Shown here: piece by piece, positions 9,298-41,800 of the stretch
How the letters are laid out: each line of letters opens with the position of its first letter
Numbering within the stretch: the first letter of the stretch is position 1
From: Hormiphora californensis
Lineage: Eukaryota; Animalia; Ctenophora
Reading direction: 5' to 3'
Assembly (NCBI GenBank): GCA_020137815.1
Contig: CM035351.1
Coordinates: 8,804,001-8,868,000, forward strand
Length of the DNA stretch: 64,000 nucleotides
Translations under genes and position numbers: made by a program
Notes under the pieces: model-generated
What the model was told of the DNA's origin: nothing
Seen by the model: the letters and a program-made list of their open reading frames with translations, nothing else
The model's database searches: none

Positions 9298-13634
<4,337 letters not shown>

Positions 13635-19260: not shown

Positions 19261-19980
19261 ATGCCAGACGTGATCGTTACACACCCCGACTTTGTGGCAA
19301 TCTCTATAACAAGTACTGTCTCCAGTGTCGCCTCAGAGAAGCGGTTCCAGTCTCATTTGACCGTTAGGGAACTGAAGGGTAAACTGGAAATGATAACGGG
19401 CGCCTCCATGGATTCCATGAAGATTGAAGTGTTCAATTCCAATAACAAGTCCATCGGGAAGCTGACAAATGATGAGGCTGTGTTAAAGGATGTTCTTGAG
19501 AATGGGCTGCGTCTCCATGTGACAGATCCCAACGCGGTGAGTTTCAATGAGGGTGATGTTGAGAAGTACGAGATGACTAAAGAGGATTACGACTCCAGGG
19601 AGGATACGGTACAAGCTTTCAAAAGGAAGAACAAGCTGGGGAGGTTCAACCCGGAAGTCCAGGCCAAACTGGCTGCTCAAGAAGAGGAGAACAAGGAGAA
19701 GGCTTTGAAAATGAATGTAGGTGATAGATGTGAAACGAAAACCCCAAACCAACCGATACGACGTGGCGAGATCATGTTTGTAGGGGAAACCAACTTCAAA
19801 GCAGGCTACTGGGTTGGTGTGAAGTTCGATGAACCGGTAGGTAAACACGATGGTCTTGTTGAGGGTAAACGGTATTTCACTTGCCAGAACAAGTATGGTG
19901 CGATGGTGCAGCCCCGATATGTTGAGGTGGGTGACTTCCCCCCGGAAGATGACGACCTCTTTTCGGACGATGAGATCTAA
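19261..19980 (+). CDS. TBCB: Tubulin-folding cofactor B (Ubl + CAP-Gly)
   Basis: N-terminal ubiquitin-like domain (ELKGKLEMITG), FKRKNKLGRFN, CAP-Gly WVGVKFDEPVGKHDG...RYFTC, acidic DEI end; intronless CDS. Confidence 0.95.
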   Translation: MPDVIVTHPDFVAISITSTVSSVASEKRFQSHLTVRELKGKLEMITGASMDSMKIEVFNSNNKSIGKLTNDEAVLKDVLENGLRLHVTDPNAVSFNEGDVEKYEMTKEDYDSREDTVQAFKRKNKLGRFNPEVQAKLAAQEEENKEKALKMNVGDRCETKTPNQPIRRGEIMFVGETNFKAGYWVGVKFDEPVGKHDGLVEGKRYFTCQNKYGAMVQPRYVEVGDFPPEDDDLFSDDEI

Positions 19981-20606
19981 TTGTTTTGTGTGTTTGCTGG
20001 TGTATGTACGTTTGTATTTAAATTTATGTATTCATAGATCTGTGTCATCATTACATAATATCCTCCACACACACAGTGGGAACTGAGGTGGACAAATTTT
20101 TTGACAAAAGTTTTTCTGTTTTTGGTTGTTTCTGATCACAAATTGTCTGGTCCGTTCAGAGCAAAAAACCGTATCGAAAAATTCCAACTTTTGTAGAAAT
20201 GGTGGCATATTTTTGACGGGCATTTTAAAATCTTACATTTTGTTGGTTAAATTTGATCGTAATCATATCTTTTCTGCATAATCATCTGATTCACTACTTA
20301 GTATGGATTAAGTTCCACCTGGTTCTTTGTTTAACACCCCGTTCCATGGAAAAAACCGCAAGAAGATCCAAAATTTGAGAAAAATTCTGTCGCGCATGCA
20401 AATTTGATGCTATTTTTAGCTTATAAAAAGGCTCAATTATTTTTTTGCCGCATTATGCCGCATATGAGTATGGTTCTATGTGATAGAGCATCTTAATACG
20501 GACATTTTGGCATAAAAATATAGTACGGCTCGTTACGGCTAAAATTTTTATGGGTGTTTTAATAAACAAGGTAAACACGAGGTATTTTGGTACTTTGGAA
20601 AACAAA

Positions 20607-20653
20607 TTTACCGTAGCTTTCAATTACACTGGGGTAATCTTCATCAGCGGAAA
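20607..20653 (-). ncRNA. Minimal type I hammerhead ribozyme in the 3' pLTR
   Basis: Minus strand: TTTCCG CTGATGA AGATTAC cccagt GTAATT GAAA GC TA CGGTAAA; core boxes, stems I and II, palindromic AGCT in place of stem III. Confidence 0.8.
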
Positions 20654-20792
20654 GGGTGAATGGGTTGAGTGGTGGGTATAAATACCCAGGGTGTGATTGG
20701 ATTGGGTGACAGGGTGGAGACGAGATAGGGTGGTGAGCTGGGTTGTTGTGGTATGATGAGAGGGGGGATGAGAGCAGGGAGGGAGAGGGGGG

Positions 20793-23517
20793 CTACAGCT
20801 GTGATACGTGAGACGGGTTAGTGGCAGGGGGAGTGGGGACGGAGGGAGACTGGAAGGCGGGGATATTGGCACTACGGGGGTTGAAGGAGGATGCAACAAT
20901 GGGGAGGATGGGGTCCCATTGCTGGCTGACGGAAGGAGCTTTGGAAGTCCGGTTGAGCGAGGGCTGGAGGGTCTGGATGGCCGCCTGTTCTAACATGTCT
21001 AGATGGGCCGATGATGCCGCAGTAGACAGGATCTCCGTAGCACTCCAGTTGATCTCGTGATCGGTGTGGAGAGCGTGGAGAGCTGCTCCTGATTTAATAT
21101 TCCCAGTGATGAGGTCGACGGGGTTTTTGAGTCTGTATGAGGCCTCGTGTTCTTTAATGCGGACTTGTACTGGCCTTTTAGTCTGTCCGATGTAGCTGGC
21201 TGGACAGTCCTGACATGGGATCCTGTATATGACGTTCTGCGTGAGTTGAGGCGGGAGCGGGGATTTGGTCTTGGAGAGGAGAGAGCGGAGGTTCGGAGAG
21301 GAGGTGTAGGTGACGTCGATGGAGTATTTCCGTAAAGTCTGTTTGATCTGGGGCGCCAGGGAGGGATGGTACGGAATGAAGACTCTTTCGTTAGAGGTAG
21401 CTGATGATGAACGAGGAGCTGATGATGAACGAGGAGGACGGGGTCGGTTGAGCCTGTGTTTGACGTCATCCATTACTGATCTGACGATGTGGCTAGGGAA
21501 TCCATTGGCCAGGCAGATGGAGTATACCGTGTAGAGTTCCTCTTGGAGATGCTGACTGGAACAGAGGTTGTATGCTCTGCGGGTGAGTGACCGGATAACT
21601 GCGTTCTTGGTGGCCGGAGAGGACGAGGAGGAGTGTTTGACATACAGGTTTGTGTGGGTCGGCTTCCTGTAGATCGAGGTGGAGAGGTCGGCGTGGATCA
21701 GGACATCAAGGAACGGAAGGGAGCCATCTGGCTTGGGGTGTTCGATGGTGTACTGAAGGTCCTTACTGAGAGAGTTGATGTGACGCTGGAAGGATTCTGC
21801 ATGTTGGGCGTCTCTGGCTGCTCCAATACCATCATCCACAAAATGGCGGTATGAATGGATCGGATCTGGTGCGGTGGTGAGTGCCAGGTTCTCAATGTCT
21901 GCAGTTCGAATCTCGGCCAGGGCTACGGTGAGAGGAGATCCCATAGCTCCACCAGAGGTTTGGGAGTAGAACTTACCACCAAACTCAAAGTAGGCATTGT
22001 CCAGACACAGGTTTAGGAGTGACTGGAGGTTGTACGATGGAGATCTCGGAGGAGAGGAGTGAAGGATCGGATCGAAAGGAAGCAATGGCGGCAGCGGCAG
22101 CAGCTCGCATGTCGGCGTTGGTATAGAGGGATACGACGTCCAGGGAGAAGTAGTAGGGAAAGGCCGGATCATGGGACGATTGAAGGTGGGAGACGAGGGC
22201 TTCTGAGTCCTTGAGTCTGATGGAGTTCCTGGTGAGGGGCGACAAGAGGACGGAGAGCTGCTTGTGGAGGGCGGAGAGCGGGGAGTTGTAGAAGGCCACA
22301 ATGGGACGGATAGGAGCTCCGGCCTTGTGGATCTTCGGAGTGCCGTACAACTGAGGATACCTGGGGTTGATCACTCGCATCTGGTTTTGGAGGGAGGTGG
22401 AAAGGGTGCGCTCCTTGACAAAGCGTTTGAGCACAGAGTCGAGCTTCCTCTTGACAGAGTCCGTAGGGTTGTGCTTCAAGAGGGAGTACGCTCCTGCATC
22501 TCGGATGTGGTCTAACATCTTGCCCATGTACTGGTCCTCTGTTAGTACGACGGTGGCATTTCCTTTGTCTGCAGGGAGGATGCGAAGAGTGCCACGTTTC
22601 TGTTTGAGGGTACGAATAGCCTCTTGCTGGCTATTGGTGAGGTTCGAAGATTTAGAGGGAGGAGTGTAGGAGGATAGGATGTGGGAGATCTCCCATGATG
22701 CAGCGGCTTCCATGCCGGGAGGGAGGCGTTTGGTGGTGGGTTGGATGCGGGGAGCGATGTCGATCGCAGGATGGGAGGTAGGAGAAGGTGTGAACTTGAG
22801 TCCTTGAGAGAGGAGTTCAGTTTCACCTGGGTTAAGGGGGGTACCTGAGAGATTGATAACGAGTTTGGAGGGGTCAAGGGAGGGACAGATGGGTTGGGTT
22901 TTGGGAAGGGGTCCAGAGATGGTAGGGTGGGTAAAGTGAAAGTCTACAAGAACATCGTAAGGGTTGAGAAAAGGAGCATGATAGTGTTGAATGAGCAATG
23001 CGAACTTCTTCTGGTGAGTTGTCGTGTGGCGTTTGTGAAGAAACACACTTCTCTCCCTTATAAATACATTCAGTCTCTCTCTAAAGTGTCCAGTTAATAG
23101 AAAATCAAGATTTCCGTTGGTAGTGCTAAACTCCTTGTGGTGTTTGGCGAACTTGGATCGGAGATGAGAGAGTCGCTCTGTTAAGAGGAGGGAGGAGGCC
23201 TTGAACATGATGGCTGTCGAACGTGGAGTGCCAACTGGGTCCTGTAGGCGCAAACCTTTGGGTATGAACCCATGGTCTCTGCAAGATTTGAGGAAGGCGA
23301 TGTGGCACGAGGTGACCGCTAGGGTCGTCAGGAGTTTGAGAAGAAGTTTGGTGGAGGTAGCAGCTTGGACACCACATGTCTCCCGAAGGGATTGAGAGAA
23401 GGAGAGGCGTTTCACACTGGGGATGGAGGAAGGAAGATGGTGTGGAGAGCAGGATGGGGAAGAAGAAATGGAGGGTGGGCTGTTGGATGCTGAGTCTCGT
23501 GGAGGCTGTAGATCCAT
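20793..23517 (-). CDS. Penelope RT + GIY-YIG endonuclease polyprotein (one +1 frameshift near 22034)
   Basis: ILPADKGNATV, LYGTPKIHK..PIRPIV, SLDVVSLYT, GAMGSPL, HFVDD, LPFLDV, YRKPTHT, VIYRIPCQDCPASYIGQT; deleting one base at ~22034 joins SSEISI-DNLQSLL. Confidence 0.92.
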
Positions 23518-23587
23518 AGAGGGCTGGTAGTACCAGGAAACAATAAACAAGGTAAACACGAGGTATTTTGGTACTTTGGAAAACAAA

Positions 23588-23634
23588 TTTACCGTAGCTT
23601 TCAATTACACTGGGGTAATCTTCATCAGCGGAAA
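23588..23634 (-). ncRNA. Minimal type I hammerhead ribozyme in the 5' pLTR
   Basis: Identical to the copy at 20607-20653. Confidence 0.8.
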
Positions 23635-25046
23635 GGGTGAATGGGTTGAGTGGTGGGTATAAATACCCAGGGTGTGATTGGATTGGGTGACAGGGTGGAG
23701 ACGAGATAGGGTGGTGAGCTGGGTTGTTGTGGTATGATGAGAGGGGGGATGAGAGCAGGGAGGGAGAGGGGGGCTACAGCTGTGATACGTGAGACGGGTT
23801 AGTGGCAGGGGGAGTGGGGACGGAGGGAGACTGGAAGGCGGGGATATTGGCACTACGGGGGTTGAAGGAGGATGCAACAATGGGGAGGATGGGGTCCCAT
23901 TGCTGGCTGACGGAAGGAGCTTTGGAAGTCCGGTTGAGCGAGGGCTGGAGGGTCTGGATGGCCGCCTGTTCTAACATGTCTAGATGGGCCGATGATGCCG
24001 CAGTAGACAGGATCTCCGTAGCACTCCAGTTGATCTCGTGATCGGTGTGGAGAGCGTGGAGAGCTGCTCCTGATTTAATATTCCCAGTGATGAGGTCGAC
24101 GGGTGTTTTAAGACCAAAAATTTGCCAAAAATCGGCAATTTTTCACTTTTATGTGTATTTTCCCATATACCGAATATGCATGTTTTATTCGTTATTCGTG
24201 TTTATTTTAACTTATACATTGTTATCAAGTGCTGTTAGAGCTAAATAAAGAATATAAAATCAATAAAATTGAAAAATGTAAAATTTTACTTATAAAATTT
24301 AATTTTTTCAAAATGCCTCTCGCGGGCCAAAATTTTCGACATAAAAGGACTCATAAGTCGAAAACGGTTGGATTTAGGGCATATGTTGCTTCATGACGCC
24401 TATATAAACATGCACATTCCGGTCATTTTGCACCCAACGTTGGGCTCTCTAGGACCTTCCTGGAAAAAGTTAGTTTTTTTAATTAATTAACTAATTAATT
24501 AGCTAATTAAGACGAAAATTGAGGTCCCCGAACTTCAAAAGTGGTAAATTTGTTTATAAATCGACCCTTGCCTCTCTTTTTAGCTTCAAGAAAACTCATT
24601 AACTCTTGCCAGTTAAAAGTTAATAAAATTAATTAATTAATTAATTACAATTTATTGGCGATTTTTCGAAAAATTTGTATAAATTTGCTTTTTATAAGGT
24701 ATGAGATCATTTAGATCCAAAAAAGTTGTTGTAAAGTCAGATAAAAAATTTGTCCACCTCGTGCAATAGAAATTCCCACTGTGACACAGCTTGTGCTAAT
24801 GAATAATATATTATCTAGCTGGGTATAATGGGAGAGGTAGCACAGCGACCTGACCAAATGATGTGCATGGGTATTGCTCATATTCAGATGAATAAAACAC
24901 CACAACCCCAGGTACAACTCGTCCCCCGCGCTCATAATTTATGGGCCGTATTATATGATCAATCCTCCTTTCTAACATCACTTTAAAATGATCTCAAATG
25001 AGCGAGGAAGTTTAATTTTCTCCTTCCGACTGTACAGAATGAGTAG

Positions 25047-26851
25047 ATGGGTTTTATTGTAGAAGAACGCTTAAACCCTAAATTCCCTCTCCATCAGGTA
25101 TGGAAGAGTTTGTTTTACTGGTGGTCTAAGTGGGTCTCAGAATGTAAGGACAATGAACAGATGAGTGCGTGTTTTGAAACAATTTCAACCCTACCAGGAT
25201 TTGCTCAACACAGTCGCTTATTTTGCGACTTCATGGCCTGTAATCTACCACTTTTTGAGCGTGAAAAGTGCTTATCTAAAGGTAATATATTCATTTCTAT
25301 GTCCCCTGATGTTGACAATTCCTCACTTCTGCCAATCTAACACATGATTCCCAAGTCTCACAGTGTCACGTGACCCAATCTAACACATGATTCCCAGGTC
25401 TCACAGTGTCACGTGACCCTGTAGTGGCTGCCCAACTGCAGGATACCCGGAGTGAGGCCATGGAACGATGGACATTCCGCATGCTAAACGACAGGACACG
25501 GAACTCCGCATACCGTTCTGCGCTTCATGAGATAATTCAGGAGTTGGGAGGAGACAAGTTGAGGGTATTGGATGCGGGGGCTGGGACTGGGTTACTCAGT
25601 CTCTACGCAGTTGAAGCGGGTGCTGGAAGTGTGATGGCAGTCGAGCAAGATGGACTAATGCATGAGATATGCAGGAGGGTGACACGTGATCACAATGAGA
25701 TAGAGTGTTACCATGGTAACACACGAGAGTTACCTGGGGATATTCAGGTGGATATCGTTGTCACGGAGACACTCGACTGCATTGGTATTGGGGAGGGTAT
25801 AGTGGATACGTGCCGAGATATTGCAATAAAGTCGCGTCACAGACCTGTCACTTTCGTCCCGTCTAGAATCGCTGTCAGTGCGTTCCCCATCCAATCACAT
25901 CTCCTGCACTTGTCTCATTTCAAAGGTTCTGAATACAGGAGTACCATTGGAACTCAAGCTACCCCTTATTGTTGTGAGTTTGTGAGCGAGTTCCTAGACA
26001 TTGTCAATATTAGCGATCCTCTCCAGATATTATCACATCGCCTGGGTGATGAATTACCACCATCCACCACCACTCTTACCTTCAAGTCTAAGACTCGGTG
26101 CAGTGTCGATGGGATAGTCACCTACTTCACTGCCCAACTCTCCCCCGAGGTATCACTCACTAATGCCCCGGGGAATGTGGCATCTGCGGAGTGCTGGGAG
26201 CAAGGATACCACCCCCTACCAAGGAGAGACTTCCAGTGCGGAGAGAAGTTCACGGTTTCTGTGGAAATCACTGCATCATCAATTCGGATGTGCTGGCCGG
26301 GAGAGGCGATCATTCAATCCGTGGAGGGACTGGATATGAGGATGTTAAATGCCCGGTTAGCTAGTAACCCCTGCCTAGCTAACACAATCCCGAGAATGGT
26401 GACACCAGATGGTATGGTGGTATGTGATGACCAGGATAATATCAGTTTTAAAGGCGTTGTTATTCACTGTGAATCTTTGGAACGGTGGACTAGAGTTGAC
26501 AAGGGCGTGGTGGAGAGTAAGATTATTGCAGAGGAGGTTAATCGGTTTCAGACTATAGTTCATCAGGGTGTCCCATGGAAAACCATGCAACACAAAGCCC
26601 TATCTGACACAATGAAACTAAAAAATGGACAAGTAAAAAGATTTTCCTCAAAATATCCCTCCCTTGTGCCTACTGCGTTAGTGTTTTGGTGTACGATAAC
26701 TCTCCAAAATGGTAAAATATTCGACCAATCAACAGAATGGCCCTTGTGGCGACCAGCTGCGGTTCTATTTGAACCAATTGTGCCATCAAACGAATACACT
26801 GTTGAGTTTAGGGCTCAAGGTGGCAATGTTTTCGCATCAATTACTAATTGA
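25047..26851 (+). CDS. PRMT9: Protein arginine methyltransferase, PRMT9-like
   Basis: ERWTFRMLNDRTRNSAY, VLDAGAGTGLLS, VVTETLD..IGEG and CWEQ motifs; the exon ending AAAG|GT at 25281 splices in phase to the acceptor at 25397; start uncertain. Confidence 0.75.
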
Positions 26852-27075: not shown

Positions 27076-28101
27076 TCACAAGGCTGTCATACACACATGT
27101 TGTGGTGAAGAACTGTGCGTTGATGAAAATATCGACATTTTAGGAGTCTGAAGGGCATTGGGTCTATTAGGAGCTATCCCAACTTCGTTAGCTTTATGAG
27201 ACTGCTTGCGAAGATAGTATATTGTGTACCGGCGGAAGCTGCGCAGTGTCAGGAAGTAAATGAGGGGGTTACTACTGAAGTTCACATATATCAGCATAGT
27301 GGCGAACCTCTGGAAATACAATCCCATCCCCCTAATCTCACTAAATCTCTTTCTGTTTATCTGATAGACAGCAAAGGGGAAGAAAGTTATAAAGTAGGTA
27401 AGGGACACTGCCAGTAGGACGGCCACACCATGTTGCCGCATCGCCATCTTCCGCTTGAAAATCAGATAACAGAGCAAAAACACGACAACACAAATGACAA
27501 AGAAGAATGGGATAAAAATGAAGACTATTGAGTTAATCCTTGGAATTATAGCGTTCACCATATCGTTTTTAAAGTATCCAACACACCGATACAGACCGTG
27601 CTTGAAGACCTGTACTCGTCCTCCTAACACATTCGCTGACAGCTGGAGAAGGGGGAACACCCAAGTCAGGATGCACACAAACATCCCCGACCTGGTAGTC
27701 CGGGCCCGAGCACGCAGGGGCGACATGAGGAGGGTCATCTTGGAGAAGTTGAGGGCACACACTGATATGATCTCACAGGACCCAAAGTAGATGCTCAGGT
27801 AGGAGGAGATATCACACATCACCCTCCCAAGTACCCACCCATTGTATAGTATGGAGGTGAGGTTAGTTAGGAGGATGCAGCAGAAGGCGAGGTCTATGAT
27901 GGCTATGTTTCGGATCAGAGCCAGTGAAACACAGTCTAATACGATAGAGTTATCTCTGAAGGATGATATCAAGACGAATGTGTTTCCAAATACCGAGAAC
28001 CCTACTAGAGTGGTTATCCACAAACCCATGGCTGACCGCTCAAGTAGTGTCGCTGGCATATCCGAGTAAAACAATGAGTCATTCAGTGTTGTTCCGTTCA
28101 T
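27076..28101 (-). CDS. Rhodopsin-like (class A) GPCR, intronless
   Basis: Seven hydrophobic segments, GN in TM1, NIAIIDL in TM2, WVLGRVMC, NPLIY in TM7, N-terminal N-glycosylation sites; DRY replaced by SKM. Confidence 0.9.
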   Translation of the reverse strand: MNGTTLNDSLFYSDMPATLLERSAMGLWITTLVGFSVFGNTFVLISSFRDNSIVLDCVSLALIRNIAIIDLAFCCILLTNLTSILYNGWVLGRVMCDISSYLSIYFGSCEIISVCALNFSKMTLLMSPLRARARTTRSGMFVCILTWVFPLLQLSANVLGGRVQVFKHGLYRCVGYFKNDMVNAIIPRINSIVFIFIPFFFVICVVVFLLCYLIFKRKMAMRQHGVAVLLAVSLTYFITFFPFAVYQINRKRFSEIRGMGLYFQRFATMLIYVNFSSNPLIYFLTLRSFRRYTIYYLRKQSHKANEVGIAPNRPNALQTPKMSIFSSTHSSSPQHVCMTAL

Positions 28102-28546
28102 GTTCTAGAATGGAGGGGGGGGGGGTTGAACAAAATGGAAAGAGCAAAAAGGAGCACAAGTATAATTTATACTTTGTCTAGGTAAGGCGTACCCGCTAAA
28201 CTGCAGCAGACTAGATCCGAGCTTGCCCCACCTATTAGAAGAAGCTGCATGACGTTATATCGGACAGAAAACGATCATTTTCGATCGAATATTTAGACGT
28301 CTATGAGCACAGAGTAATGTGGGACAAACCCATATAACGAGTAGAGCAACGCAGTAACGACTAGTTGAAGCGAGATAGCAAAGACATGGGTAAAGAATGT
28401 CATCAAAATGTGAACTGTGAACCTATTACAATTTCATTACTCAGTGACTGCCCTAGTATAGGGAGCAGCTTTTGTCTTTTGAAGTAAATTAACCAGCACA
28501 ATTTGTGGATTAAAAAGGACCCCTTTTATCACACGCTCTCTATGAT

Positions 28547-31500
28547 TACCCCCCTTATCCTCCCTTATTTGACGTTGCATGTTAAGGGGAGGAGGCACAT
28601 AGGTCCGACGCTGAGTAATGACAGGAACACCTGGGGGTGGTTAACCACGATAGTCCTAACAAGACTGGCTGTATTTTATGTACGGTGGCAAACGTGGGCT
28701 AGAGTGTGTTGAACCACAGTATATGCACCATTCTGCCTTCTATAGGCTCAGTGGGTCAGAACTGTGTCAAATCATTCTCAATCACGTACTTCCCTACAGA
28801 AGGTTCCCATATACCTTTCTGCAAGGCTTGATTGAATATATTGTGGCAAAATGCTAGTGATCGCCACCAAGGGGTCACTACGGTCACCAGATGCTGTTTG
28901 AAATCTCTGCTAGTGTAGGGTCGGTATTGCACCGTTTTGTTTAATCTTATATGATATTTAACGTATACCAGTAAAGGTTCAAAATCCGGCAGCTAGAGGC
29001 TAGCAACCTCTACTGTTGTATATCAATTGCTAAAGAAACGTCGAAAAGTAAATCTCGCTCCGAAAGGAAAGGTCGATCTCGGGCGACAAGAGCCGGTGAG
29101 CTCAGCATGACGGGCGCAGGGCAAAGCCGCGAGGACCCCTGCGTGCAGACGGGGACAAAGAGATCGTCTCATTGTAACCGAGTTATTAGCTGTGCTATCA
29201 CCGAAGTGAGCCCCGATTTATCTAAACAGAATCCGTACAACCTTGTAAAATACAGTTTTAAAATATCAACTTGGAATGTGCTCTCTCTGGAGAGTAGCTC
29301 ATCGAAATTGTACGAACTAGCGAGGGTGACATCAGAGTATGGAACTGACGTTATGACCTTGACAGAAACTCACCGGCCTGGAACTGGTGTGGTAGTGTTG
29401 GAGAACGGGAATTTGTTCATTAACTCGGGGAGAATGGATGGGATTCGGAGACAGGGAGTAGGAGTTGTCTTGTCTAAGAGGGTTAAGAACTCATTGATCT
29501 CATATACCCCTGTATCTGAGCGGGTGATGTGGCTGAGGCTCCACTCTAAACAGGTCAATGTGTCTGTTGTGGTGGCATATGCCCCTACCGAGGATGCGGA
29601 GGACAGTGTGAAGGATGGGTTTTACAATGAGGTAACTGGGGTATTGGATGGACTGCCGGGGCAAGATGTTGTATTCCTCAGTGGGGACTTCAATGCTAGG
29701 GTAGGGAGTGACAGTGAATCAGTGTCCGGGGTTGTCGGGAAACACTCTTTACACGCGGTTTCTAACAACAACGGGAAGCGTCTTGTTGACCTCTGTACAC
29801 TGTATGGGCTGGTTATTGGTGGCTCCCTTTTTGAGCATCTTAATATTCATAAGGGGACCTGGAAATCACCGGATGGTCGGACCGTCACTCAAATTGACCA
29901 TATCTGTGTGAGCTCTAGGTGGAAATCTTCCCTCCTTGATGTTCGGTCTTATCGTGGCGCTGATATTGGCTCAGACCACTATCTTGTGGGGGGTCGGTTT
30001 CGGCTTCGTCTTAGGGCTAATGGAAGGAGGAAGGGTGAAAGGGTGGCAGTGCCTGACTTGCAGAAGCTCCGAAATGGGAGTAAGATCGTAGAATACCAGG
30101 TTGCTCTCAAAAACCGGTTCGAAGAACTGGAGGATGGAGTAGATTTGGAATCTAGGTGGGATTTCTTCATGAACACCATCAGTGACACGTCTTTGGAAAT
30201 TCTGGGGAAACGACCAGCCCAGAAGAGGCAGTGTCATCTGTCTGATACCACCAAGGATCTTATTAGCCAGAGAGCTGAAGCTAAGAGGAAGGGTGAAACA
30301 GCTAGTGAGGATTACGGCAGGTTAAGGAAGGTGGCAAAGAGGAGCAGTAGGGAGGACGAGCAGTTGTGGGCGGACAAACTAGCTGATGATTTGGAAGGTG
30401 CAGCAAGGCGTGGTAACCAGAGGGATGTTTGGCAGCTTACCAAACAGATCGCTGGTAAGGCGAATTCGAAGGGTGTTGCTGTCCGGGACAATGCGGGTAA
30501 CCTCCTTTCCGAGGTCGACCAGCAGAGAGGAAGATGGGCGGAACACTTTTCGACGCTTCTGAATCCCCAAGCATCTCCGGTTAATCTGGTGGATTTGGGG
30601 GAGCTTTCAGGGCGGCCTTGTTTTTCGGAGCTTGAAGATAGCGACGCTGCACCAACAATCACTGAGATCAGCACCGCTCTCAAGCGTCTCAAGAACCACA
30701 AGTGTCCGGGACTAGACGGAGTTTCAAATGAGGAGCTGAAGTTTGGTAGCGCGGTGCTTGTGGGACCACTGGAGGCACTGTTTGGAGAGGTGTGGGAGTC
30801 TGAGAAGGTACCATCTGACTGGCTCAAGGGAGTTATTACCGTTCTCCCGAAAAAAGGAGACTCATCGGTATGTGGAAACAACCGCGGAATTACCCTTAGA
30901 GCCACCACCTCTAAGCTCTTTCAAATGGTACTTCTGGGCAGAATGGAGGATGGGCTCGAGAGACTTCTACGAGAAAACCAGTGTGGGTTTCGGAGGGGCC
31001 GATCCTGCATTGATCAGATTTTCTCACTGAGGATGGCCATCCACCAGGCTTCAGAGTATAACCTGCCCCTCTTTGTCAATTTTATTGACTTTAAGGCTGC
31101 TTTTGACTCGATTAACAGAGGGTTCATTTGGGCTGCGTTCAAGTACTATGGCCTCCCCGATAAATACATCAGAATCCTCAGGAGCTTCTTTGATGGGACA
31201 GTCAGCGCGGTTAGGTGGGCTGGTGGACTGTCGGATTGGTTCGAGGTTCTATCGGGCACAGGTCAGGGTGACATTCAGGGGCCTGTGGTGTTTAATGTCT
31301 GCCTGAACCTGGCCGTGGAGCTTAGTGAGGCGCATGGAAGTCCGTCCCGAGGGTTAGTACTGAGGCAGGAAGGAGACTCAGTAGAGACGGTACTTGATTG
31401 TGACTACGCTGACGACATGGCAGTCATGGATAGCACAGAGGCGGGGCTGCAGGAATCTACTGACTTAATCTGCAAGTTTTCTGAGTATGCCGGGCTGAAG

Positions 31501-32247
31501 GTGAACACCAGGAAGACCGAGGCCATGGCTGTTGCTAAATCTAGTGTACAGCCTCCACCAGAAGTCAGTCTTACCATAGGGGACACAGAAATTAGTCAGG
31601 TCAGAGATTTCACCTACCTGGGATCGAAGATAAGTTACGATGGGAAACTGGATGGCGAACTTTCTTCTAGAATTGGGAAGGGATCAGGTGCATTCCGGTG
31701 CTTGGGGAAGGTCTGGAACAATCGTAACATCCTGGAGCGAACAAAAATTCGTATTTATGAGGCTGCGATCCTGACCATCCTACTGTATGGGAGTGAGACC
31801 TGGAACACTACCAAGGCACAGATGCACCGTTTGGAGGTTTTCCACCAGACCTGTCTCCGCCGTATCCTTAAAATCAGGTGGTACAACAAAGTGAGCAATG
31901 TTAAGGTCTTGAAGAGAGCGGGAATCAGTACAGTGCAGGGATACATCTCCTCGAACCGGCTACGGTGGTTTGGTCATGTGTCCAGGATGCCAGAACATCG
32001 GATCCCCAAGATCTTCATGAACTGGGTCCCTAGGCATGGGAAGAGATCTAGAGGACGACCTAGGAAGACTTGGCTGCAGTGTGTCCGTGAGGATGCCTGT
32101 GCTGTTTCAGGAGTTGATGATACCAATGAGGAGTTGATGGGGAAAGCACAAGATCGTGACGAGTGGCGGCGATTTTCAAGAAGAGCGAGATATTCCGACG
32201 CGGGCCACTCTAACGATTGAGGAGACCCCTTCAAGTACAAGTAAGTA
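28547..32247 (+). mobile_element. Full-length RTE-clade LINE with an intact ORF
   Basis: TSD CTCTATGAT at 28538-28546 and 32248-32256; (AAGT)n-like tail; ~560-nt 5' UTR. Confidence 0.92.
29107..32220 (+). CDS. APE endonuclease + reverse transcriptase (RTE ORF, 1037 aa)
   Basis: TWNV, GDFNA, QIDHI, SDH; FIDFKAAFDS, QGD, YADD, YLGS, RLRWFGHV. Confidence 0.95.
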   Translation: MTGAGQSREDPCVQTGTKRSSHCNRVISCAITEVSPDLSKQNPYNLVKYSFKISTWNVLSLESSSSKLYELARVTSEYGTDVMTLTETHRPGTGVVVLENGNLFINSGRMDGIRRQGVGVVLSKRVKNSLISYTPVSERVMWLRLHSKQVNVSVVVAYAPTEDAEDSVKDGFYNEVTGVLDGLPGQDVVFLSGDFNARVGSDSESVSGVVGKHSLHAVSNNNGKRLVDLCTLYGLVIGGSLFEHLNIHKGTWKSPDGRTVTQIDHICVSSRWKSSLLDVRSYRGADIGSDHYLVGGRFRLRLRANGRRKGERVAVPDLQKLRNGSKIVEYQVALKNRFEELEDGVDLESRWDFFMNTISDTSLEILGKRPAQKRQCHLSDTTKDLISQRAEAKRKGETASEDYGRLRKVAKRSSREDEQLWADKLADDLEGAARRGNQRDVWQLTKQIAGKANSKGVAVRDNAGNLLSEVDQQRGRWAEHFSTLLNPQASPVNLVDLGELSGRPCFSELEDSDAAPTITEISTALKRLKNHKCPGLDGVSNEELKFGSAVLVGPLEALFGEVWESEKVPSDWLKGVITVLPKKGDSSVCGNNRGITLRATTSKLFQMVLLGRMEDGLERLLRENQCGFRRGRSCIDQIFSLRMAIHQASEYNLPLFVNFIDFKAAFDSINRGFIWAAFKYYGLPDKYIRILRSFFDGTVSAVRWAGGLSDWFEVLSGTGQGDIQGPVVFNVCLNLAVELSEAHGSPSRGLVLRQEGDSVETVLDCDYADDMAVMDSTEAGLQESTDLICKFSEYAGLKVNTRKTEAMAVAKSSVQPPPEVSLTIGDTEISQVRDFTYLGSKISYDGKLDGELSSRIGKGSGAFRCLGKVWNNRNILERTKIRIYEAAILTILLYGSETWNTTKAQMHRLEVFHQTCLRRILKIRWYNKVSNVKVLKRAGISTVQGYISSNRLRWFGHVSRMPEHRIPKIFMNWVPRHGKRSRGRPRKTWLQCVREDACAVSGVDDTNEELMGKAQDRDEWRRFSRRARYSDAGHSND

Positions 32248-32630: not shown

Positions 32631-35600
32631 ATGTCAAGTGTCAACTCACTAGATAGTATTGGTTGGGACCCGTCCTATCAAATTGGAGCCGCATTTCTCA
32701 CTACTTATTTCGCCTGTTTGCTCATGACGGCTGGTGACTACCTTTTAGCCCTTCTTGGTTCTGTGTTAGGTGAGTTGATTGTACATAATAATTACATTTG
32801 TAATTAAATGTTCACTGTCATATAATCTTTTATTGGTAACGAAATTACCCCTACCTCAGTTACGAGGGGTAATTTCGTTACCAATATCTTTTATAATCAC
32901 TAGACAGGTCGAAAGATGTTTAACTATCGCAGGTCATAATATAAAGCAATATGATATATTTTGACACTAAATGGTCATGTGACAGAATAGAGGCTTCTAA
33001 CCCCCCTCCCTACTGCCACCCTTCTAACCCCTCCTCCCTACTGCCACCCTTCTAACCCCCCTCCATACTGCTACCCTTCTAACCCCCCTCCCTACTGCCA
33101 CCCTTCTAACCCCCTCCCTACTGCCACCCTTCTAACCCCTCCCTACTGCCACCCTTCTAACCCCTCCCTACTGCCACCCTTCTAACCCCCTCCCTACTGC
33201 CACCCTTCTAACCCCCTCCCTACTGCCACCCTTCTAACCCCTCCCTACTGCCACCCTTCTAACCCCCTCCCTACTGCCACCCTTCTAACCCCCCTACCGC
33301 CACCCTTCTAACCCCCTCCCTACTGCTACCCTTCTAACCCCCCTCCCTACTGCCACCCGTCTAACCCCCCTACCGCTACCCTTCTAACCCCCCCCCTACT
33401 GCCACCCTTCTAACCCCCTCCCTACTGCCACCCTTCTAACCCCTCCCTACTGCCACCCTTCTAACCCCCTCCCTACTGCCACCCTTCTAACCCCCTCCCT
33501 ACTGCCACCCTTCTAACCCCCCTCCCTACTGCCACCCTTCTAACCCCTCCTCCCTACTACCACCCTTCTAACCCCTCCTCCCTACTGCCACCCTTCTAAC
33601 CCCTCCCTACTGCCACCCTTCTAACCCCCTCCCTACTGCCACCCTTCTAACCCCCCTCCATACTGCTACCCTTCTAACCCCCCTCCCTACTGCCACCCTT
33701 CTAACCCCCTCCCTACCGCCACCCTTCTAACCCCCTCCCTACTGCCACCCTTCTAACCCCCTCCCTACTGCCACCCTTCTAACCCCCCTCCCTACTACCA
33801 CCCTTCTAACCCCCCCTCCCTACTGCCACCCTTCTAACCCCTCCTCCCTACGGCCACCCTTCTAACCCCCCCCCCTACTGCCACCCTTCTAACCCCTCCC
33901 TACCGCTACCCTTCTAACCCCTCCCTACTGCCACCCTTCTAACCCCTCCTCCCTACTGCCACCCTTCTAACCCCTCCCTACCGCTACCCTTCTAACCCCT
34001 CCCTACTGCCACCCTTCTAACCCCTCCTCCCTACTGCCACCCTTCTAACCCCTCCCTACTGCCACCCTTCTAACCCCCTCCCTACTACCACCCTTCTAAC
34101 CCCCTCCCTATACTGCCACCCTTCTAACCCCCTCCCTACTACCACCCTTCTAACCCCCTCCTCCCTACTGCCACCCTTCTAACCCCCTCCCTATACTGCA
34201 ACCCTTCTAACCCCCCTCCCTAGTGGTACCCTTTTAACCCCCCTCCCTACTGCCACAGTGCTGCTGGTGCTACCATTGATCTTGGAGCGGGTCCCCTACC
34301 TCCAGAGAAGACTCCTCTTCCACTCGTGGTACTACCAACCTGATAAACCTCTAGACAGACCTGAACTCCATGGACTTCCCGGGGCGCAGAACCGCCGTAT
34401 TGGACCTCTCGGGTGTTGGTATGTTTCCAACCCGGACTCTGGGGTGGTCATTGTCTATTGTCATGGGAGCTCAGGATCTCGTGCTAATGAGTACCGGGTG
34501 GACTTGGTAAGATTCCTATCCGAGGACCTTGGTTTCACCGTTTACTCCTTCGATTACAGAGGTTATGCTGACTCCCCGGGCCATTCTTCTGAGGTGAACT
34601 CTGTCGAGGATGCCAGGTCGGTGTTGAGGGTGGCCAGGAAGGAGCACCCTGGAGCCATGGTCTACCTCTACGGGCACTCCATGGGCACGGGGGTATCATG
34701 CCAGGCTGCTTATCAGGAGGTACAAGATGGGGCTCCGGTAGATGGTATTATTCTGGAGGCACCCTTTCTTTCAATACCAGAGGTGGTCCTAAAATCTCCC
34801 GCTGCTCGGGTGCTAAATGCTCTCTATGGTGGGTTCCTCTGGAGGTTTAGTGATCTCTTCATGTCACGAGATGTGATCGGGGAGCTGGAAAATGTGCTGA
34901 TTCTATTTGCTAAGGACGATGAGGTAGGTAAACAAAGTAATAAGACCAATGATCATAAATAAAATGATAATATACAATGGTACAGGGGTGGGCATAAAAA
35001 ATGTCCGCCCTAGACTAGCATAGTTCCAGATATCGTAGAGGGCTAAAACTTGGCAGAGTTACTCTATGGAACAAATAAATAGGTTGACCGAAATTTCAGA
35101 CTTTTAGCTCAAAGTTCATTTTTTTGATCGGAATGAACATTGTCAGTCATTCCAAAAAACATGAATTTTCGGTCCAGAAGTCAAACAATTGTCTTTGGCT
35201 ATCGAATGTCTTTCAAATGCGACCAAGAAAATCAAAAACGTACAACCACAAGGCACACAGTGATCATGTTTCTGTCAGTTAGTCAGGTCATGTGATCCCC
35301 ACCGAATCATGGACAACTTTCTGAATTGCTAATCAGGCTTATCGGGGAAGAATCACGTATCATAGCCGCTAATAAGGGATGTGTATCGAAAAGCGACCTG
35401 TGATGCGAGAGCATTGGGATAAAGAGGCCACTTGTTAATGAGCCTCGGATCTCATGGCCAATCATCATCGTCATCCCTCATTAGCGGCTGTGATACGTGA
35501 TTCTCCACAACTAATCCTGATTAGCAATTCATAACAGTCCACGATTCGGTGGGGATCACATGATCTGACTAACTGACAGAAACATGATCACTGTGTGCCT

Positions 35601-37353
35601 TGTGGTTGTCCGTTTTTGGTTTTCTTGGTCGCATTTGAATGAAATTTGATAGCCAAAGACAATTGTTTGACTTCTGGACCGAAAATTCATGTTTTTTGGA
35701 ATGACTGACAATGTTCATTCCGATCAAAAAATGAACTTTGAGCTAATAGTCTGAAATTTCGGTCAACCTATTTATTTGTTCCATAGAGTAACTCTGCCAA
35801 GTTTTAGCCCTCTACGATATCTGGAACTATGCTAGTCTAGGGCGGACATTTTTTATGCCCACCCCTGTATAAAGTGGTCAAGTAGATTAAATTTCAGTCT
35901 TAAAGGTTGACAAGATACCTAAAACTTTTCGTTTTTGATATTTTTACCTGCTCGGGTGAATAAGATGGACCAAAAGACCATCACCGTCTCTATCAGACAC
36001 TACAAGTGGTATTGATTACCTTCTGCGTTTCCGTTCACAACTCATGACTGCCACCTCGTTTAATTGCCAGAGCAATGAGCATACCTGCTCTACAGTAGTT
36101 CCATGGTTGCGAAAAGGGCAGGAACCTTGGTCAGATTTGACCAACTAGGGTAGCTTATGTATTGAGGGACCAGCGAGCCAGGCATGCATATTGTGTGACT
36201 TGGAGAATGGAGATGTACGAAGCTGAAAAGGGAACCTTCACTGACATAAGCCTCCAAATAATTTTCTAATCAGAGCCCCTTTCCCACTGGAAGGATGAAT
36301 CATGAACTCCAAGTACGATGTGGAGTGTTTTAACAACTCTACACCGACAAAACAGTGTGGATTCAGTCATCTAACTGGTGTTGCGAAAACGCAGCGATTG
36401 TTCAAAATAGCTCCTATTGATACAATTTTGACGGAAAATGAATACTATCTAGTTATTATAGAGTCAAACCATTTACTTGGGACCATAAAATATCTATTAA
36501 TCTATTCAATTATACACTGTTGCGGGCAGGGAAATTCGAAAATATACGATAGACAACGAGTTTTAGAGATCTTGTTTATTGATTGAGTAAGATGTACCCA
36601 ATTTCTGAGAAAGGGCCTTTCCGAGAAATCTTTGTCAGATTACGCCCGGTGCGAAGCGAGGGTTACGGAAGTAACAAAGAAATCTAGTAATTAGCCCTGA
36701 AAGTGATAGATCTGACAGTATTCTACTTCTTCTGACAGTATCAAGCTGTTAAGATGAACTGTCAGAAAAATGTCTCTGATATATGAAGTGTCTAATGATC
36801 ATACTCTGATTCTTGACGTACATGGCGCATTTGAAACTTAAAACTCTTAAAATGCCAGACATGTCTGGCATTTAATGAGTTTTTTAAAAGTCTGGCTAAT
36901 ATTCAAATGTGCTATGTAACCAGTCAATTTATCATCATCTGATAGGTGATACCCATGATATCTGACACCTATATTTAACTAGGTGATACCCGTTATATCT
37001 GACACCCATATATTTAACTAGGTGATACCCGTTATATCTGACACCTACATTTAACTAGGTGATACCCGTTATATCTGACACCTATATTTAACTAGGTGAT
37101 ACCCGTTTACCATGCTACAGAACTCCATGACATGTGCTCTGGCTCATCACTTCTACTTACTGAAAAAGGGGGACACAACTTCTTAATACACGAGGTAAGA
37201 AAGCGCTTATATAATAATAGTTTCTGGGAGCACTACAGCAGAACTGGGGGAGGCAATGAATTTCGAAAAAGAAAATACGAAGAAGATACGAAGAAAAATC
37301 AGGTGAATGAAATGATCGCTTCTGATTGGATGAATGCTATAAATCAGTTTTAA
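32631..37353 (+). CDS. ABHD12: ABHD12-like alpha/beta hydrolase, at least 3 exons
   Basis: Exons 32631-32769, 34259-34923 and 37096-37353 are phase-compatible; YCHG, FDYRGYADS, GHSMG nucleophile, ILEAPF, DDEVIP, GGHN catalytic His. Confidence 0.8.
32995..34256. repeat. ~25-bp intronic minisatellite (CTTCTAACCCCCTCCCTACTGCCACC)n
   Basis: About 50 copies, running directly into the exon 2 acceptor (TGCCACAG). Confidence 0.95.
34983..35867. mobile_element. Palindromic Tc1/mariner-type MITE, TA TSD
   Basis: TA|CAGGGGTGGGCATAAAAAATGTCCG ... CGGACATTTTTTATGCCCACCCCTG|TA; arms ~400 bp. Confidence 0.88.
36944..37108. repeat. ~37-bp tandem repeat of an intron/exon junction
   Basis: (AG|GTGATACCCGTTATATCTGACACCTATATTTAACT) x4, followed by the true exon start at 37096. 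Confidence 0.9.
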
Positions 37354-38846: not shown

Positions 38847-41800
38847 GATACTAAGCTGAGGTTTGCCAAAACGGAAATCAGGTGAATTGCACCTGACAAC
38901 CGAGACACATGCTCCCGGCATGGTCAACATCACCCGGACCGCCACACCTTACAGACACTTCGGTAGTATTCAATCAGGAATCCGAATATGTGCCAAAGTG
39001 TAAGGGGGAGCCCACTGCTTGTCATGGGTAATGTCATTTGGGCCCAGATGGAGTGCCGTTGGGGCCCACTGGAGTGCCGTCTTGCCAATGCGTCTGTCGT
39101 CTTGGATTGAGTAGAGGGGATGGTGTCAGACACCGGGTTGGGGCTAGGAAGAAGGGAAGGGGTAGGTAGGGGCTAGGTTGGGGATTGAAGGATAAAATCA
39201 ATATACACATTGCATATAAAGATAACATCTCGGCTGGCTCCTATCATCGTATTGACAATAGCGAGAAAGGGAGAGGAAGAGGAAGAGGGAGATATGATAG
39301 GTAGGGTGACTGCAAAATGAACTAGGTGTGAGTGGTACAATGATAGGCAGGGTAACTGCAGAATGAACTAGGTGTGACTGGTACAATGATAGGCAGAGTA
39401 ACTGCAGAATGAACTAGGTGTGACTGGTACAATGATGGGCAGGGTAACTGGAGAATGAACTAGGTGTGACTGGTACAATGATAGGCAGGGTAACTGCAGA
39501 ATGAACTAGGTGTGACTGGTACAATGATAGGCAGAGTAACTGCAGAATGAACTAGGTGTGACTGGTACAATGATGGGCAGGGTAACTGGAGAATGAACTA
39601 GGTGCGACTGGTACAATGATAGGCAGGGTAACTGCATAATGAACTAGGTGTGACTGGTACAATGATAGGCAGAGTAACTGCAGAATGAACTAGGTGTGAC
39701 TGTACAATGATGGGCAGGGTAATAGCAGAGTGATCTAGGTGTGACTGGTACAATGATAGGCAGGGTAACTGCAGAATGAACTAGGTGTGACTGATACAAT
39801 GATAGGCAGGATAACTGCAAAATGAACTAGGTGTGACTGGTACAATGATAGGCAGGATAACTGCAAAATGAACTAGGTGTGAGTGGTACAATGATAGGCA
39901 GGATAACTGCAAAATGAACTAGGTGTGACTGGTACAATGATAGGCAGGGTAACTGCCGAATGAACTAGGTGTGACTGGTACAATGATAGGCAGGATAACT
40001 GCAAAATGAACTAGGTGTGACTGGTACCATGATAGGCAGGGTAACTGCCGAATGAACTAGGTGTGACTGGTACAATGATAGGCAGGGTAACTGCAAAATG
40101 AACTAGGTGTGGGTGGTACAATGGGGGGTGCGGAAATGGTCGTTAGGACCATCACCGAAAAGTGACATGCGAGCAGGGTAGCCCTGTCAAGGAAAGTAGT
40201 GTTGAAAATATAATTTGTAATTGGAAAATACAATCACCATAATAGGAAAAGGCGGAAAAGGTAGTTAGGGGCAATACTGAAAAAGACATATGAGCAGGGT
40301 AACCCTGTCAGGGAAAGAAGATTAGGCGGCAGGCCCAGGGAGTGAGATAGAGATAGATGAAGGGTATACAGTGGGACCCGGAAAAGGTTACAACGGCAAT
40401 CTCCAGCTAATTGATATCAGACATGGATGTCCCCAGTAAACGAATTATCACGATTGGGACCGATGTCACATAATCAGCCTAAACCATAGTTGGGAGAGCA
40501 GTTGATTAGACACTGGGAGAGAGGAATTCTGCCCTGGATTAAATTACACCTGAGAAGGAGGGAATAGAAATGAGTGGGCTGGATAGTTGAACCTGAGAAC
40601 AGGAGGGTGAGAAGAGGACGAGTACGATGGTAAACTCGATGCGGGGATCACTAGATGCCCTGGAAAGATGAACACCAGGGGAAGGAACTAGTCATGAGGG
40701 AATGCAGGGCCGGGGCCGTTGACAGGATCAACTGATTGAATCAGTATTCGGTCTGGATAGGTAACGTTTTTCCTTTGCGAGTGTAGCATGTCAGTATGGA
40801 GTTGGTCCTTTGTAAGGCTATCAGCCAGCGTCAGTCAAAAGGGCGGTGCTACTTGTACGCCTGGGACCTGAAAGAGAAGTTCTACTCGGGACTCTACTAC
40901 TCTCCTAACTCAGCTACTTGCTAACAACTAACAGACAAATGAGGATGCCACTATGCTCGGAGGTCTAGAGCGTACGCTTGTACGGTGTACAGAGAAAAGC
41001 GAAAGGGTTAGATGAATACCTATGTTATTGGAAAACAGAAGCTGAGAAAAAGATTATTACATTGCTGCTTGTAGTGGGAAGACGGCGCCCGAACAACACG
41101 GCAGCCGATCACAACGGGCACCGAGACACACACATATACATACATACATACACATACATATATATATATAATTATATACATGTACATACATATATATTAT
41201 CTACCTGAAATACACAGACAAACACCACAGTGTCGAATGGACACACGTGCTGTCAATCCGGTACTCCGATACGTCCCGTCCTACCGGTCCCCACCGACAC
41301 CGCTCCCCCACCACAAGCACCCATGTTATAAGGGAAAGAACTCAACTCTTGATGAGAAAGGAATAAATATAAAACAGGGGGGGGTCCAGCCCTAAAAAAA
41401 GCTAAAGGTACCCTGATTTTGGTCGATAGCGTTTTTTATTTTAGCTTTTTTTAGCTTTTTTTTAGCTTTTTTTAGCTTTTTTTAGCCCTACTTTTTATGT
41501 TTTTTTCAGCATTCATCTTGACACTTTTCCATTAAATTTTCATCCTTCCGGACGTCTATTGACTGCATTTGTTCATTTCCTGCACATTTTTTTACCATAA
41601 TCTACCGTTTATGTCCATACATAGCAATTTCTGTATCCACCCCTACTGCCATTTTCTGGAGACATTTTTTCGATAAAAATATTATTCAAATTTGATAAAA
41701 ATAGTTTTAAAAAAGTTCAAAAAACGTTATAAAACGTTATAATAAAAGTTTAAAAAATTTGGCGTCAGCGGGATTCGAACCTATATGAATCCACTAAAAA

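What the first reader, a model, noticed from the sequence alone, without database searches (positions are those of the whole stretch)
20067..24788. Transib/RAG-type transposon with a perfect RSS heptamer and 13/23-bp asymmetric spacers
Seen: left end CACAGTG-GGAACTGAGGTGG(13)-ACAAATTTT; right end (reverse complement) CACAGTG-GGAATTTCTATTGCACGAGGTGG(23)-ACAAATTTT; 5-bp TSD ACACA. Two conserved blocks are offset by 10 bp (one helical turn) between the ends. Established: V(D)J RSSs are CACAGTG-12/23-ACAAAAACC, RAG/Transib transposition makes 5-bp TSDs, and RSS-like asymmetric ends are reported for some Transibs. Inference: a RAG1-like/Transib transposase obeying a 12/23-like rule was active in this probably early-branching animal. 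The nonamer-like block matches only 5 of 9 bases and no transposase is in the window.
Basis: partly seen in the sequence, partly recalled or inferred. Interest (0 to 1): 0.8.

Follow-up and report, generated by a model that had tools for sequence, protein, structure and literature searches.

The report
Comb-jelly Transib relic with uneven ends
This is a real 1.16-kb jumping-DNA insert in a comb-jelly genome, with no enzyme gene of its own and a 3.5-kb retrotransposon sitting inside it; its two ends differ by 10 bases exactly as in comb-jelly Transib elements already published, so it is likely an ordinary new family moved by a Transib enzyme (a relative of the antibody-gene cutter RAG1), not a new V(D)J-like signal.

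Summary
The ends are real. The element spans 20072-24783. Both ends start CACAGTGGGAA and share an 18-bp block that begins 13 (left) or 23 (right) bases from the terminus, and ACACA flanks both sides. Contigs of other samples fix the boundaries, show both ends at other insertion sites, and indicate an empty allele with one ACACA, so the 5-bp TSD holds and the asymmetry is not a private indel. Three-quarters of the length is a recent Penelope-like insertion; the insert-free element is 1,163 bp and non-coding. The host is a ctenophore. The architecture is published: Tao et al. 2022 (PMC9435367) report ctenophore Transibs and asymmetric TIRs. In their supplement, 3 of 3 ctenophore elements with both TIRs marked start CACAGTGGG and have a +10 offset; PbaTransib_0868 has its inner block at exactly 13/23, with a 5-bp TSD. 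The 'nonamer' is not significant (5 of 9; 14-19% by chance) and lacks RSS position 6. No transposase was found and no pairing rule was tested. Verdict: a new non-autonomous family of a known kind.

The parts
20067..20071 (+). Left target-site duplication ACACA
   Evidence: single copy in an empty allele of run X2, inferred from contig coordinates and depth sums
20072..20102 (+). Short terminal inverted repeat: CACAGTGGGAA, 2 nt, 18-bp inner block at offset 13; likely the 3' end by analogy with published ctenophore Transibs
   Evidence: boundary fixed by contigs of X2 and X8 whose loose ends begin exactly before 20072
20072..20562 (.). Left AT-rich non-coding arm of the non-autonomous element (35% GC; longest stop-free frame 58 aa)
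   Evidence: held as one gap-free piece by a 1,009-bp contig of X2
20552..20562 (+). 11-bp direct repeat GGGTGTTTTAA at the left junction of the retroelement insertion; single copy in the insert-free element
   Evidence: the X2 contig joins 20562 to the sequence after 24111
20561..21122 (-). Penelope-like pseudo-LTR, downstream copy (562 bp identical to the upstream copy); holds a minimal hammerhead-like motif with CUGAUGA starting at 20647
   Evidence: Rfam did not detect the motif
20793..23517 (-). Penelope-like ORF: reverse transcriptase then C-terminal GIY-YIG endonuclease, in two frames with a shift near 22030-22060
   Evidence: GIY-YIG E=0.0011, below Pfam cut-off; 94 homologues; ctenophore proteins about 51%; many more distant ones carry PF00078
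23542..24103 (-). Penelope-like pseudo-LTR, 5'-truncated upstream copy (partial tandem); hammerhead-like motif at 23628
24101..24111 (+). Second copy of the 11-bp junction repeat
24101..24783 (.). Right AT-rich non-coding arm (30% GC; longest stop-free frame 64 aa; TTAATTAA clusters at 24479 and 24629)
24743..24783 (-). Long terminal inverted repeat: CACAGTGGGAA, 12 nt, 18-bp inner block at offset 23; likely the 5' end
   Evidence: boundary fixed by 2 contigs of X5 with loose ends behind 24783
24784..24788 (+). Right target-site duplication ACACA

Best explanation
This is a 1,163-bp non-coding DNA transposon with bipartite ends offset by 10 bp, flanked by a 5-bp duplication and interrupted by a 3.5-kb Penelope-like retroelement; it is likely a non-autonomous ctenophore Transib moved by a RAG1-related transposase encoded elsewhere in the genome. 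Shown: the ends, the duplication, copies at other sites, the insert-free form and the absence of an ORF. Inferred from the family: a transposase dimer would bind the terminal CACAGTGGG block and the family-specific 18-bp inner block, cut by nick-and-hairpin at the CAC, and reinsert with a 5-bp stagger. The extra helical turn at one end would keep the inner block on the same face of the helix in an asymmetric synaptic complex. Order of events (inferred): the element inserted 87 bp after the stop codon of a tubulin-folding cofactor B gene. The Penelope-like element entered this copy or its donor recently, since its two 562-bp repeats are identical, and duplicated 11 bp.
For: Ends and TSD. Left end at three other flanks, in runs X2, X3 and X8 (X8 is a second organism by its record), and right end at another flank in 2 contigs of X5; no indel inside either TIR among the rows shown. 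Empty site: X2 and X3 each hold a 129-bp contig with 28 unaligned letters followed by 24784 onward. In X2 the depth sums fit that contig covering 20039-20071, i.e. one ACACA. Insert-free form: one X2 contig of 1,009 bp covers 20072-20562 and 24101-24540, and X2/X3 loose ends at 20562 read straight into the sequence after 24111. Host: TBCB is 75% identical to Mnemiopsis and 73% to Bolinopsis; named non-ctenophores are at most 45%. Published ctenophore Transibs with transposase genes (PMC9435367 supplement, offsets counted by hand): PbaTransib_0868 inner block at 23 (5') / 13 (3') with TSD CTGTC; MleTransib_3931 26/16; MleTransib_2823 27/17. All 8 TIRs marked in the 5 ctenophore elements start CACAGTGGG. 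5-bp TSDs and non-autonomous asymmetric families are described for Transib (PMC1131882 passages).
Against: No transposase is linked to these ends: none in the window, no genome was held, and pattern scans of metagenome, viral and prokaryote collections gave no true relative. The inner block is not found at any TIR in the supplement's sequences (line breaks could hide a match). TSDs at other sites could not be paired end to end. The five 5-mers seen beside ends (ACACA, TATCA, CTATG, TATGG, CTCAG) are not strongly GC-rich, unlike the preference reported for Transib. The 28 letters of the empty-allele contig were not printed, and the depth fit is not unique. The read laying tables hid rows (4 and 23 indel rows; 57 and 122 loose-end rows). 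A second empty allele is 5 bp shorter and is unexplained.
Confidence: 0.88

Rival explanations
1. The partner is a RAG1L-RAG2L transposon, or a Transib, that reads heptamer plus nonamer and enforces a strict 12/23-type rule.
For: Perfect CACAGTG heptamer; 13/23 lies within RSS tolerance (12+/-1, 23+/-1); +10 kept in 3 of 3 published ctenophore elements despite different inner sequences; ProtoRAG prefers its asymmetric pair (PMC8289069 discussion); PflRAGL-A has a 10-bp asymmetry.
Against: Nonamer match is not significant and position 6 is T. Other ctenophore families have an unrelated block at that register. Tao et al. list the ctenophore proteins as Transib, not RAGL. RAG1 without RAG2 loses the 12/23 rule (PMC4840297 passages).
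Confidence: 0.07
2. It belongs to another CAC-ended DNA transposon group (Chapaev or CACTA/EnSpm type) and the 5-bp repeat is a coincidence in a CA run.
For: The left flank is a CA run (CCACACA); the superfamily is assigned from termini only.
Against: Boundaries are fixed by other-site junctions at 20072 and 24783, and the empty allele has exactly one ACACA. 5-bp TSDs were described as distinctive of Transib. The shorter TSDs of the rival groups are recalled, not looked up.
Confidence: 0.03
3. The asymmetry is a frozen 10-bp indel in the family founder with no role in transposition.
For: Only one family with these ends was seen; copies in organisms A and B are about 95% or more alike, so they may share one founder.
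Against: Exactly +10, with the long end 5' of the gene, recurs in three published ctenophore elements with two other inner-block sequences; Tao et al. state that all Subgroup I Transibs have asymmetric TIRs.
Confidence: 0.02

Closest known systems
PbaTransib_0868 (Pleurobrachia bachei), MleTransib_3931 and MleTransib_2823 (Mnemiopsis leidyi); Tao et al. 2022, PMC9435367 (whole main text; supplement parts 6, 8, 9 and search passages)
   Same: Ctenophore host; ends start CACAGTGGG; bipartite TIR with the inner block 10 bp further in at one end (Pba_0868: 13/23 from the terminus, as here); 5-bp TSD.
   Different: Different inner block (GAGGTGGACAAATTTTTT versus GCTATATTAGG- or ATGACATTAAG-type); no transposase gene; 1.16 kb rather than about 3.6-3.8 kb; carries a Penelope-like insertion; insertion polymorphism seen here.
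Transib5, Transib2_AG, TransibN1-N3_AG; Kapitonov and Jurka 2005, PMC1131882 (passages)
   Same: 5-bp TSD; CAC heptamer; ends resembling RSS12 and RSS23; includes non-autonomous families.
   Different: Insect hosts; their A-rich nonamer keeps positions 5-6; there the short end is 5', whereas in the ctenophore elements the long end is 5'.
V(D)J RSS12/RSS23 and PflRAGL-A TIRs (bioRxiv 10.1101/2023.08.20.553239, passages)
   Same: CACAGTG heptamer; about one helical turn of asymmetry; 5-bp duplication on transposition.
   Different: No credible nonamer; most of the 'spacer' is identical at both ends; no RAG1L or RAG2L gene; no antigen-receptor context.
Canonical C-terminal-endonuclease Penelope-like elements (Craig et al. 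2021, PMC8557442, passages), for the insert
   Same: RT followed by GIY-YIG; partial tandem making pseudo-LTRs; hammerhead-like motif in the pseudo-LTR.
   Different: ORF is frameshifted in this copy; clade not determined by a tree.

Membership tests
Non-autonomous Transib | 5-bp target-site duplication | tested here: met
   ACACA on both sides; one copy in an empty allele inferred. One site only.
Non-autonomous Transib | Termini starting with CAC in an RSS-like heptamer, with a second conserved block inside | tested here: met
   same start as all 8 marked ctenophore Transib TIRs
Non-autonomous Transib | Mobile as a unit: same ends at different genomic sites | tested here: met
   Left end at other flanks in X2, X3, X8; right end at another flank in X5; empty alleles in X2, X3, X5
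Non-autonomous Transib | Ends shared with an element that encodes a Transib transposase | not testable with these tools
   No genome held; no relative in the collections scanned
Non-autonomous Transib | GC-rich target preference | tested here: inconclusive
   Five flanking 5-mers hold 10 G/C of 25 bases; four are unpaired and one is a consensus of two contigs
Autonomous Transib or RAGL transposon | Encodes a RAG1-core-like DDE transposase (and RAG2L for RAGL) | tested here: not met
   Non-insert arms have no stop-free frame above 64 aa; the only long ORFs are Penelope-like
Subgroup I Transib (Tao et al. 2022) | Asymmetric bipartite TIRs | tested here: met
   offset 13 versus 23
Subgroup I Transib (Tao et al. 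2022) | Transposase with alpha11-alpha12 region and CTT1; position in the tree | not testable with these tools
   No protein available; the paper's tree figure, which assigns subgroups, is not held as text
V(D)J RSS pair | Heptamer CACAGTG | tested here: met
V(D)J RSS pair | Nonamer with essential A at positions 5 and 6 at a 12+/-1 / 23+/-1 spacer | tested here: not met
   13/23 register: 5 of 9, positions 5-6 = A,T. 12/22 register: A,A but only 3 of 9. Chance of 5 or more of 9 over three registers is 0.14-0.19 (criterion).
V(D)J RSS pair | Cleavage only of a short/long pair (12/23 rule) | not testable with these tools
   Needs the enzyme and a bench assay
Penelope-like element (insert) | RT with C-terminal GIY-YIG endonuclease | tested here: met
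   GIY-YIG E=0.0011, below the curated cut-off; homologues with RVT_1; both halves match the 875-aa P0059
Penelope-like element (insert) | Partial tandem forming pseudo-LTRs | tested here: met
   562-bp identical direct repeat that includes the ORF's 3' end
Penelope-like element (insert) | Hammerhead ribozyme in the pseudo-LTR | tested here: inconclusive
   Core motif and stems present, and found only at these 2 places in the window; Rfam negative; minimum-energy fold differs, z about 0

The most novel reading that the evidence does not exclude
Ctenophore Transib transposases enforce a one-helical-turn pairing rule on their own, without RAG2 and without a nonamer. Exactly +10 bp is kept across four families with three unrelated inner blocks, so asymmetric synapsis would be an intrinsic property of the RAG1 ancestor that predates RAG2 capture. 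This family looks recently mobile (polymorphic sites), and the 5-bp-shorter empty allele could be a coding-joint-like excision scar.
Probability: 0.3. Interest if true: 0.65.

Novelty: new member of a known kind. Interest (0 to 1): 0.24.

Why it matters
By itself it is one more non-autonomous family of a described group. Its modest value: it adds a third inner-block sequence at the same +10 geometry, which argues that the spacing rather than a nonamer sequence is conserved, and it shows recent mobility in a comb jelly. Whether a RAG2-less transposase requires asymmetric ends bears on the origin of the 12/23 rule, since RAG1 alone loses the rule (PMC4840297). My searches turned up no biochemical test of an asymmetric-TIR Transib. 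The published ctenophore elements, which have their own transposase genes, are better material for that test than this copy.

Tried and rejected
No whole genome was held, so no genome-wide copy or TSD census was possible. The metagenome pattern scan gave 4 loci, none similar to the window by blastn. L001-L003 carry the motif inside another repeat, with shared sequence running past the CACAGTG in L001 and L003, so it is not a terminus. In L004 it lies in tandem motifs inside a 313-aa prokaryote- or phage-like ORF. The viral scan gave 4 loci with unrelated context. The prokaryote genome scan gave 0. Rfam over 19900-25000 gave 3 weak snoRNA matches far below gathering scores, rejected as chance. 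PDB sequence search of the RT part gave one chance hit. Pfam missed both long insert ORFs at E 0.001. No ESM Atlas result was obtained for the insert. Gaps in cover of the element in run X5 are not taken as absence, and contig depths are not used as copy numbers. The excision-scar reading of the shorter empty allele is weakened because X5's allele differs from the window haplotype at three other nearby places. Earlier-findings look-ups by sequence found nothing. The TIR alignment figures and tree of PMC9435367 are pictures and were not seen; 3 of 24 supplement parts were read whole, others only as passages.
Full report
Observation. The described ends are present. The element runs from 20072 to 24783 (4,712 bp), with ACACA at 20067-20071 and 24784-24788. 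Read inward, the ends are CACAGTGGGAA-CT-GAGGTGGACAAATTTTTT and CACAGTGGGAA-TTTCTATTGCAC-GAGGTGGACAAATTTTTT: an 11-bp terminal block and an 18-bp inner block that starts 13 or 23 bases from the terminus. In 30 simulated windows no pair had this combination (0 of the 8 chance pairs with an 11-mer and a 5-bp repeat).

What lies inside. Most of the length is not transposon body. 20561-21122 and 23542-24103 are identical over 562 bp. With the sequence between them they form a partial tandem on the minus strand, encoding a reverse transcriptase (motifs read by eye) followed by a GIY-YIG domain (E=0.0011). The reading frame shifts near 22030-22060. A homology search returned 94 proteins, including Mnemiopsis and Bolinopsis proteins at about 51% identity and many more distant ones with PF00078. 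A minimal hammerhead-like motif (recalled pattern) sits in each repeat and nowhere else in the window, though Rfam and free folding do not support it. This is the layout of a canonical Penelope-like element (PMC8557442 passages). It is bounded by an 11-bp repeat, and removing it leaves 1,163 bp. That insert-free form exists: a 1,009-bp contig of run X2 covers 20072-20562 and 24101-24540, and loose ends in X2 and X3 read across the junction. The two arms are 35% and 30% GC, with no stop-free frame above 64 aa. None of the window's 71 tested frames of 100 aa or more hit a RAG1, Transib or DDE family in Pfam (2 low-complexity frames left out).

Fourteen runs hold part of the right arm; I laid 4 of them (X2, X3, X5 of organism A; X8 of organism B).
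(a) Private indel? The left end continues into different flanks in X2, X3 and X8, and the right end into another flank in 2 contigs of X5. No indel inside either TIR appears among the rows shown. So both end types occur at other sites and the boundaries are exactly 20072 and 24783.
(b) Chance TSD? X2 and X3 each hold a 129-bp contig with 28 unaligned letters followed by 24784 onward, and a 124-bp contig with 29 unaligned letters followed by 24790 onward. In X2 the depth of bins 20028-20079 is reproduced if these contigs cover the left flank from 20039 to 20071 and 20068 (the fit is consistent, not unique). That gives an empty allele with a single ACACA and a second allele 5 bp shorter. A 1,371-bp contig of X5 bridges the shorter allele directly (19950-20068 then 24790-24914). 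The TSD therefore holds at this site; TSDs at other sites could not be paired. The insertion lies 87 bp after the stop codon of a TBCB gene.

Host. The host is a ctenophore other than those two.

The nonamer. ACAAATTTT is one 9-mer inside the 18-bp block. It matches 5 of 9 RSS positions. A match that good occurs at 6-9% of single positions and 14-19% of three-register windows in this DNA. It has T at position 6, one of the two nonamer positions described as essential (PMC1131882). At 12/22 positions 5-6 are AA but only 3 of 9 match.

Comparison with what is known. Kapitonov and Jurka (passages) described 5-bp TSDs, RSS-like termini and five insect Transib families with RSS12/RSS23-like ends, including non-autonomous ones. 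Tao et al. 2022 (main text read whole) found six Transib-like proteins in ctenophores and state that all Subgroup I Transibs have asymmetric TIRs. Their supplement lists five ctenophore elements. Three have both TIRs marked, and counting by hand from the printed sequences gives inner-block offsets of 23/13 for PbaTransib_0868 (TSD CTGTC), 26/16 for MleTransib_3931 and 27/17 for MleTransib_2823: +10 each time, with the long end 5' of the gene. Two have only a 3' TIR marked. All eight TIRs start CACAGTGGG. The window's element thus has the published ctenophore geometry with a new inner block. The paper's figures, which assign subgroups, were not visible, so 'Subgroup I' for this element rests on end geometry alone.

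Mechanism. Most likely a Transib transposase encoded elsewhere binds the terminal and inner blocks, cuts by nick and hairpin and inserts with a 5-bp stagger (established for HzTransib and RAG: passages; inferred here). The recurring +10 with changing inner sequences suggests that phase on the helix is selected. Whether unlike ends are required is open: ProtoRAG prefers its asymmetric pair (PMC8289069 abstract and discussion), while RAG1 without RAG2 loses the rule. Searches showed no test on an asymmetric Transib; subscription papers are not covered. An unchecked AI note on another piece of this genome (e1-10649023) reached a similar verdict for a 1.25-kb element that shares no indexed words with this one; it is not independent evidence.

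Verdict. Observation confirmed; Transib reading supported; RSS-nonamer and novelty claims not supported; pairing rule untested. New member of a known kind, interest 0.24.

Noticed in passing
window 20067-20071 / 24784-24790, runs X2, X3, X5: Two empty alleles at the insertion site: one with a single ACACA and one 5 bp shorter. The shorter could be an excision scar or an ordinary deletion.
   Followed up: partly
window 20590-20670 and 23571-23651, minus strand: Minimal type I hammerhead-like motif (CUGAUGA, 6-bp stem II, GAAA, two-base stem III) in each pseudo-LTR; missed by Rfam.
   Followed up: partly
window 19980-20067: The element sits 87 bp after the TBCB stop codon, with no AATAAA/ATTAAA between them, so it may lie in the 3' UTR.
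   Followed up: no
window 24915-24962: 48 bp in the window stand where X2, X3 and X5 have 10 other letters; the stretch matches a very high-depth repeat.
   Followed up: no
window 9700-11275, 34981-35869, 47447-48034, 49195-49432, 55586-56983, 57405-58489: Six more long inverted-repeat elements; 47447-48034 and 55586-56983 begin and end with TTAA.
   Followed up: no
window 28975-32220 (+) and 43965-46972 (-): Two APE-RT non-LTR retrotransposons, the first with an unbroken 1,081-aa frame, the second in several frames.
   Followed up: no
window 39156-40282, 33003-34218, 57407-58469: Tandem arrays with units of 46, about 27 and 11 bp.
   Followed up: no
window 25391-26851, 27076-28104, 50921-52303, 59787-61790: Long uninterrupted frames: methyltransferase with a weak PRMT5_C match, rhodopsin-family GPCR, papain-family protease with a C-terminal ShK-like domain, FancD2.
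   Followed up: no
L001 150-192, L002 2385-2421, L003 421-457: An unrelated repeat family in metagenome contigs carries CACAGTGG followed by GAGGTGGACAAATT at offsets 23-29, inside a longer shared sequence rather than at a terminus.
   Followed up: partly
L004 581-1522 (-): 313-aa ORF with four tandem GGACAAA-type motifs inside its coding region, resembling a phage replication initiator with iterons (label recalled).
   Followed up: no
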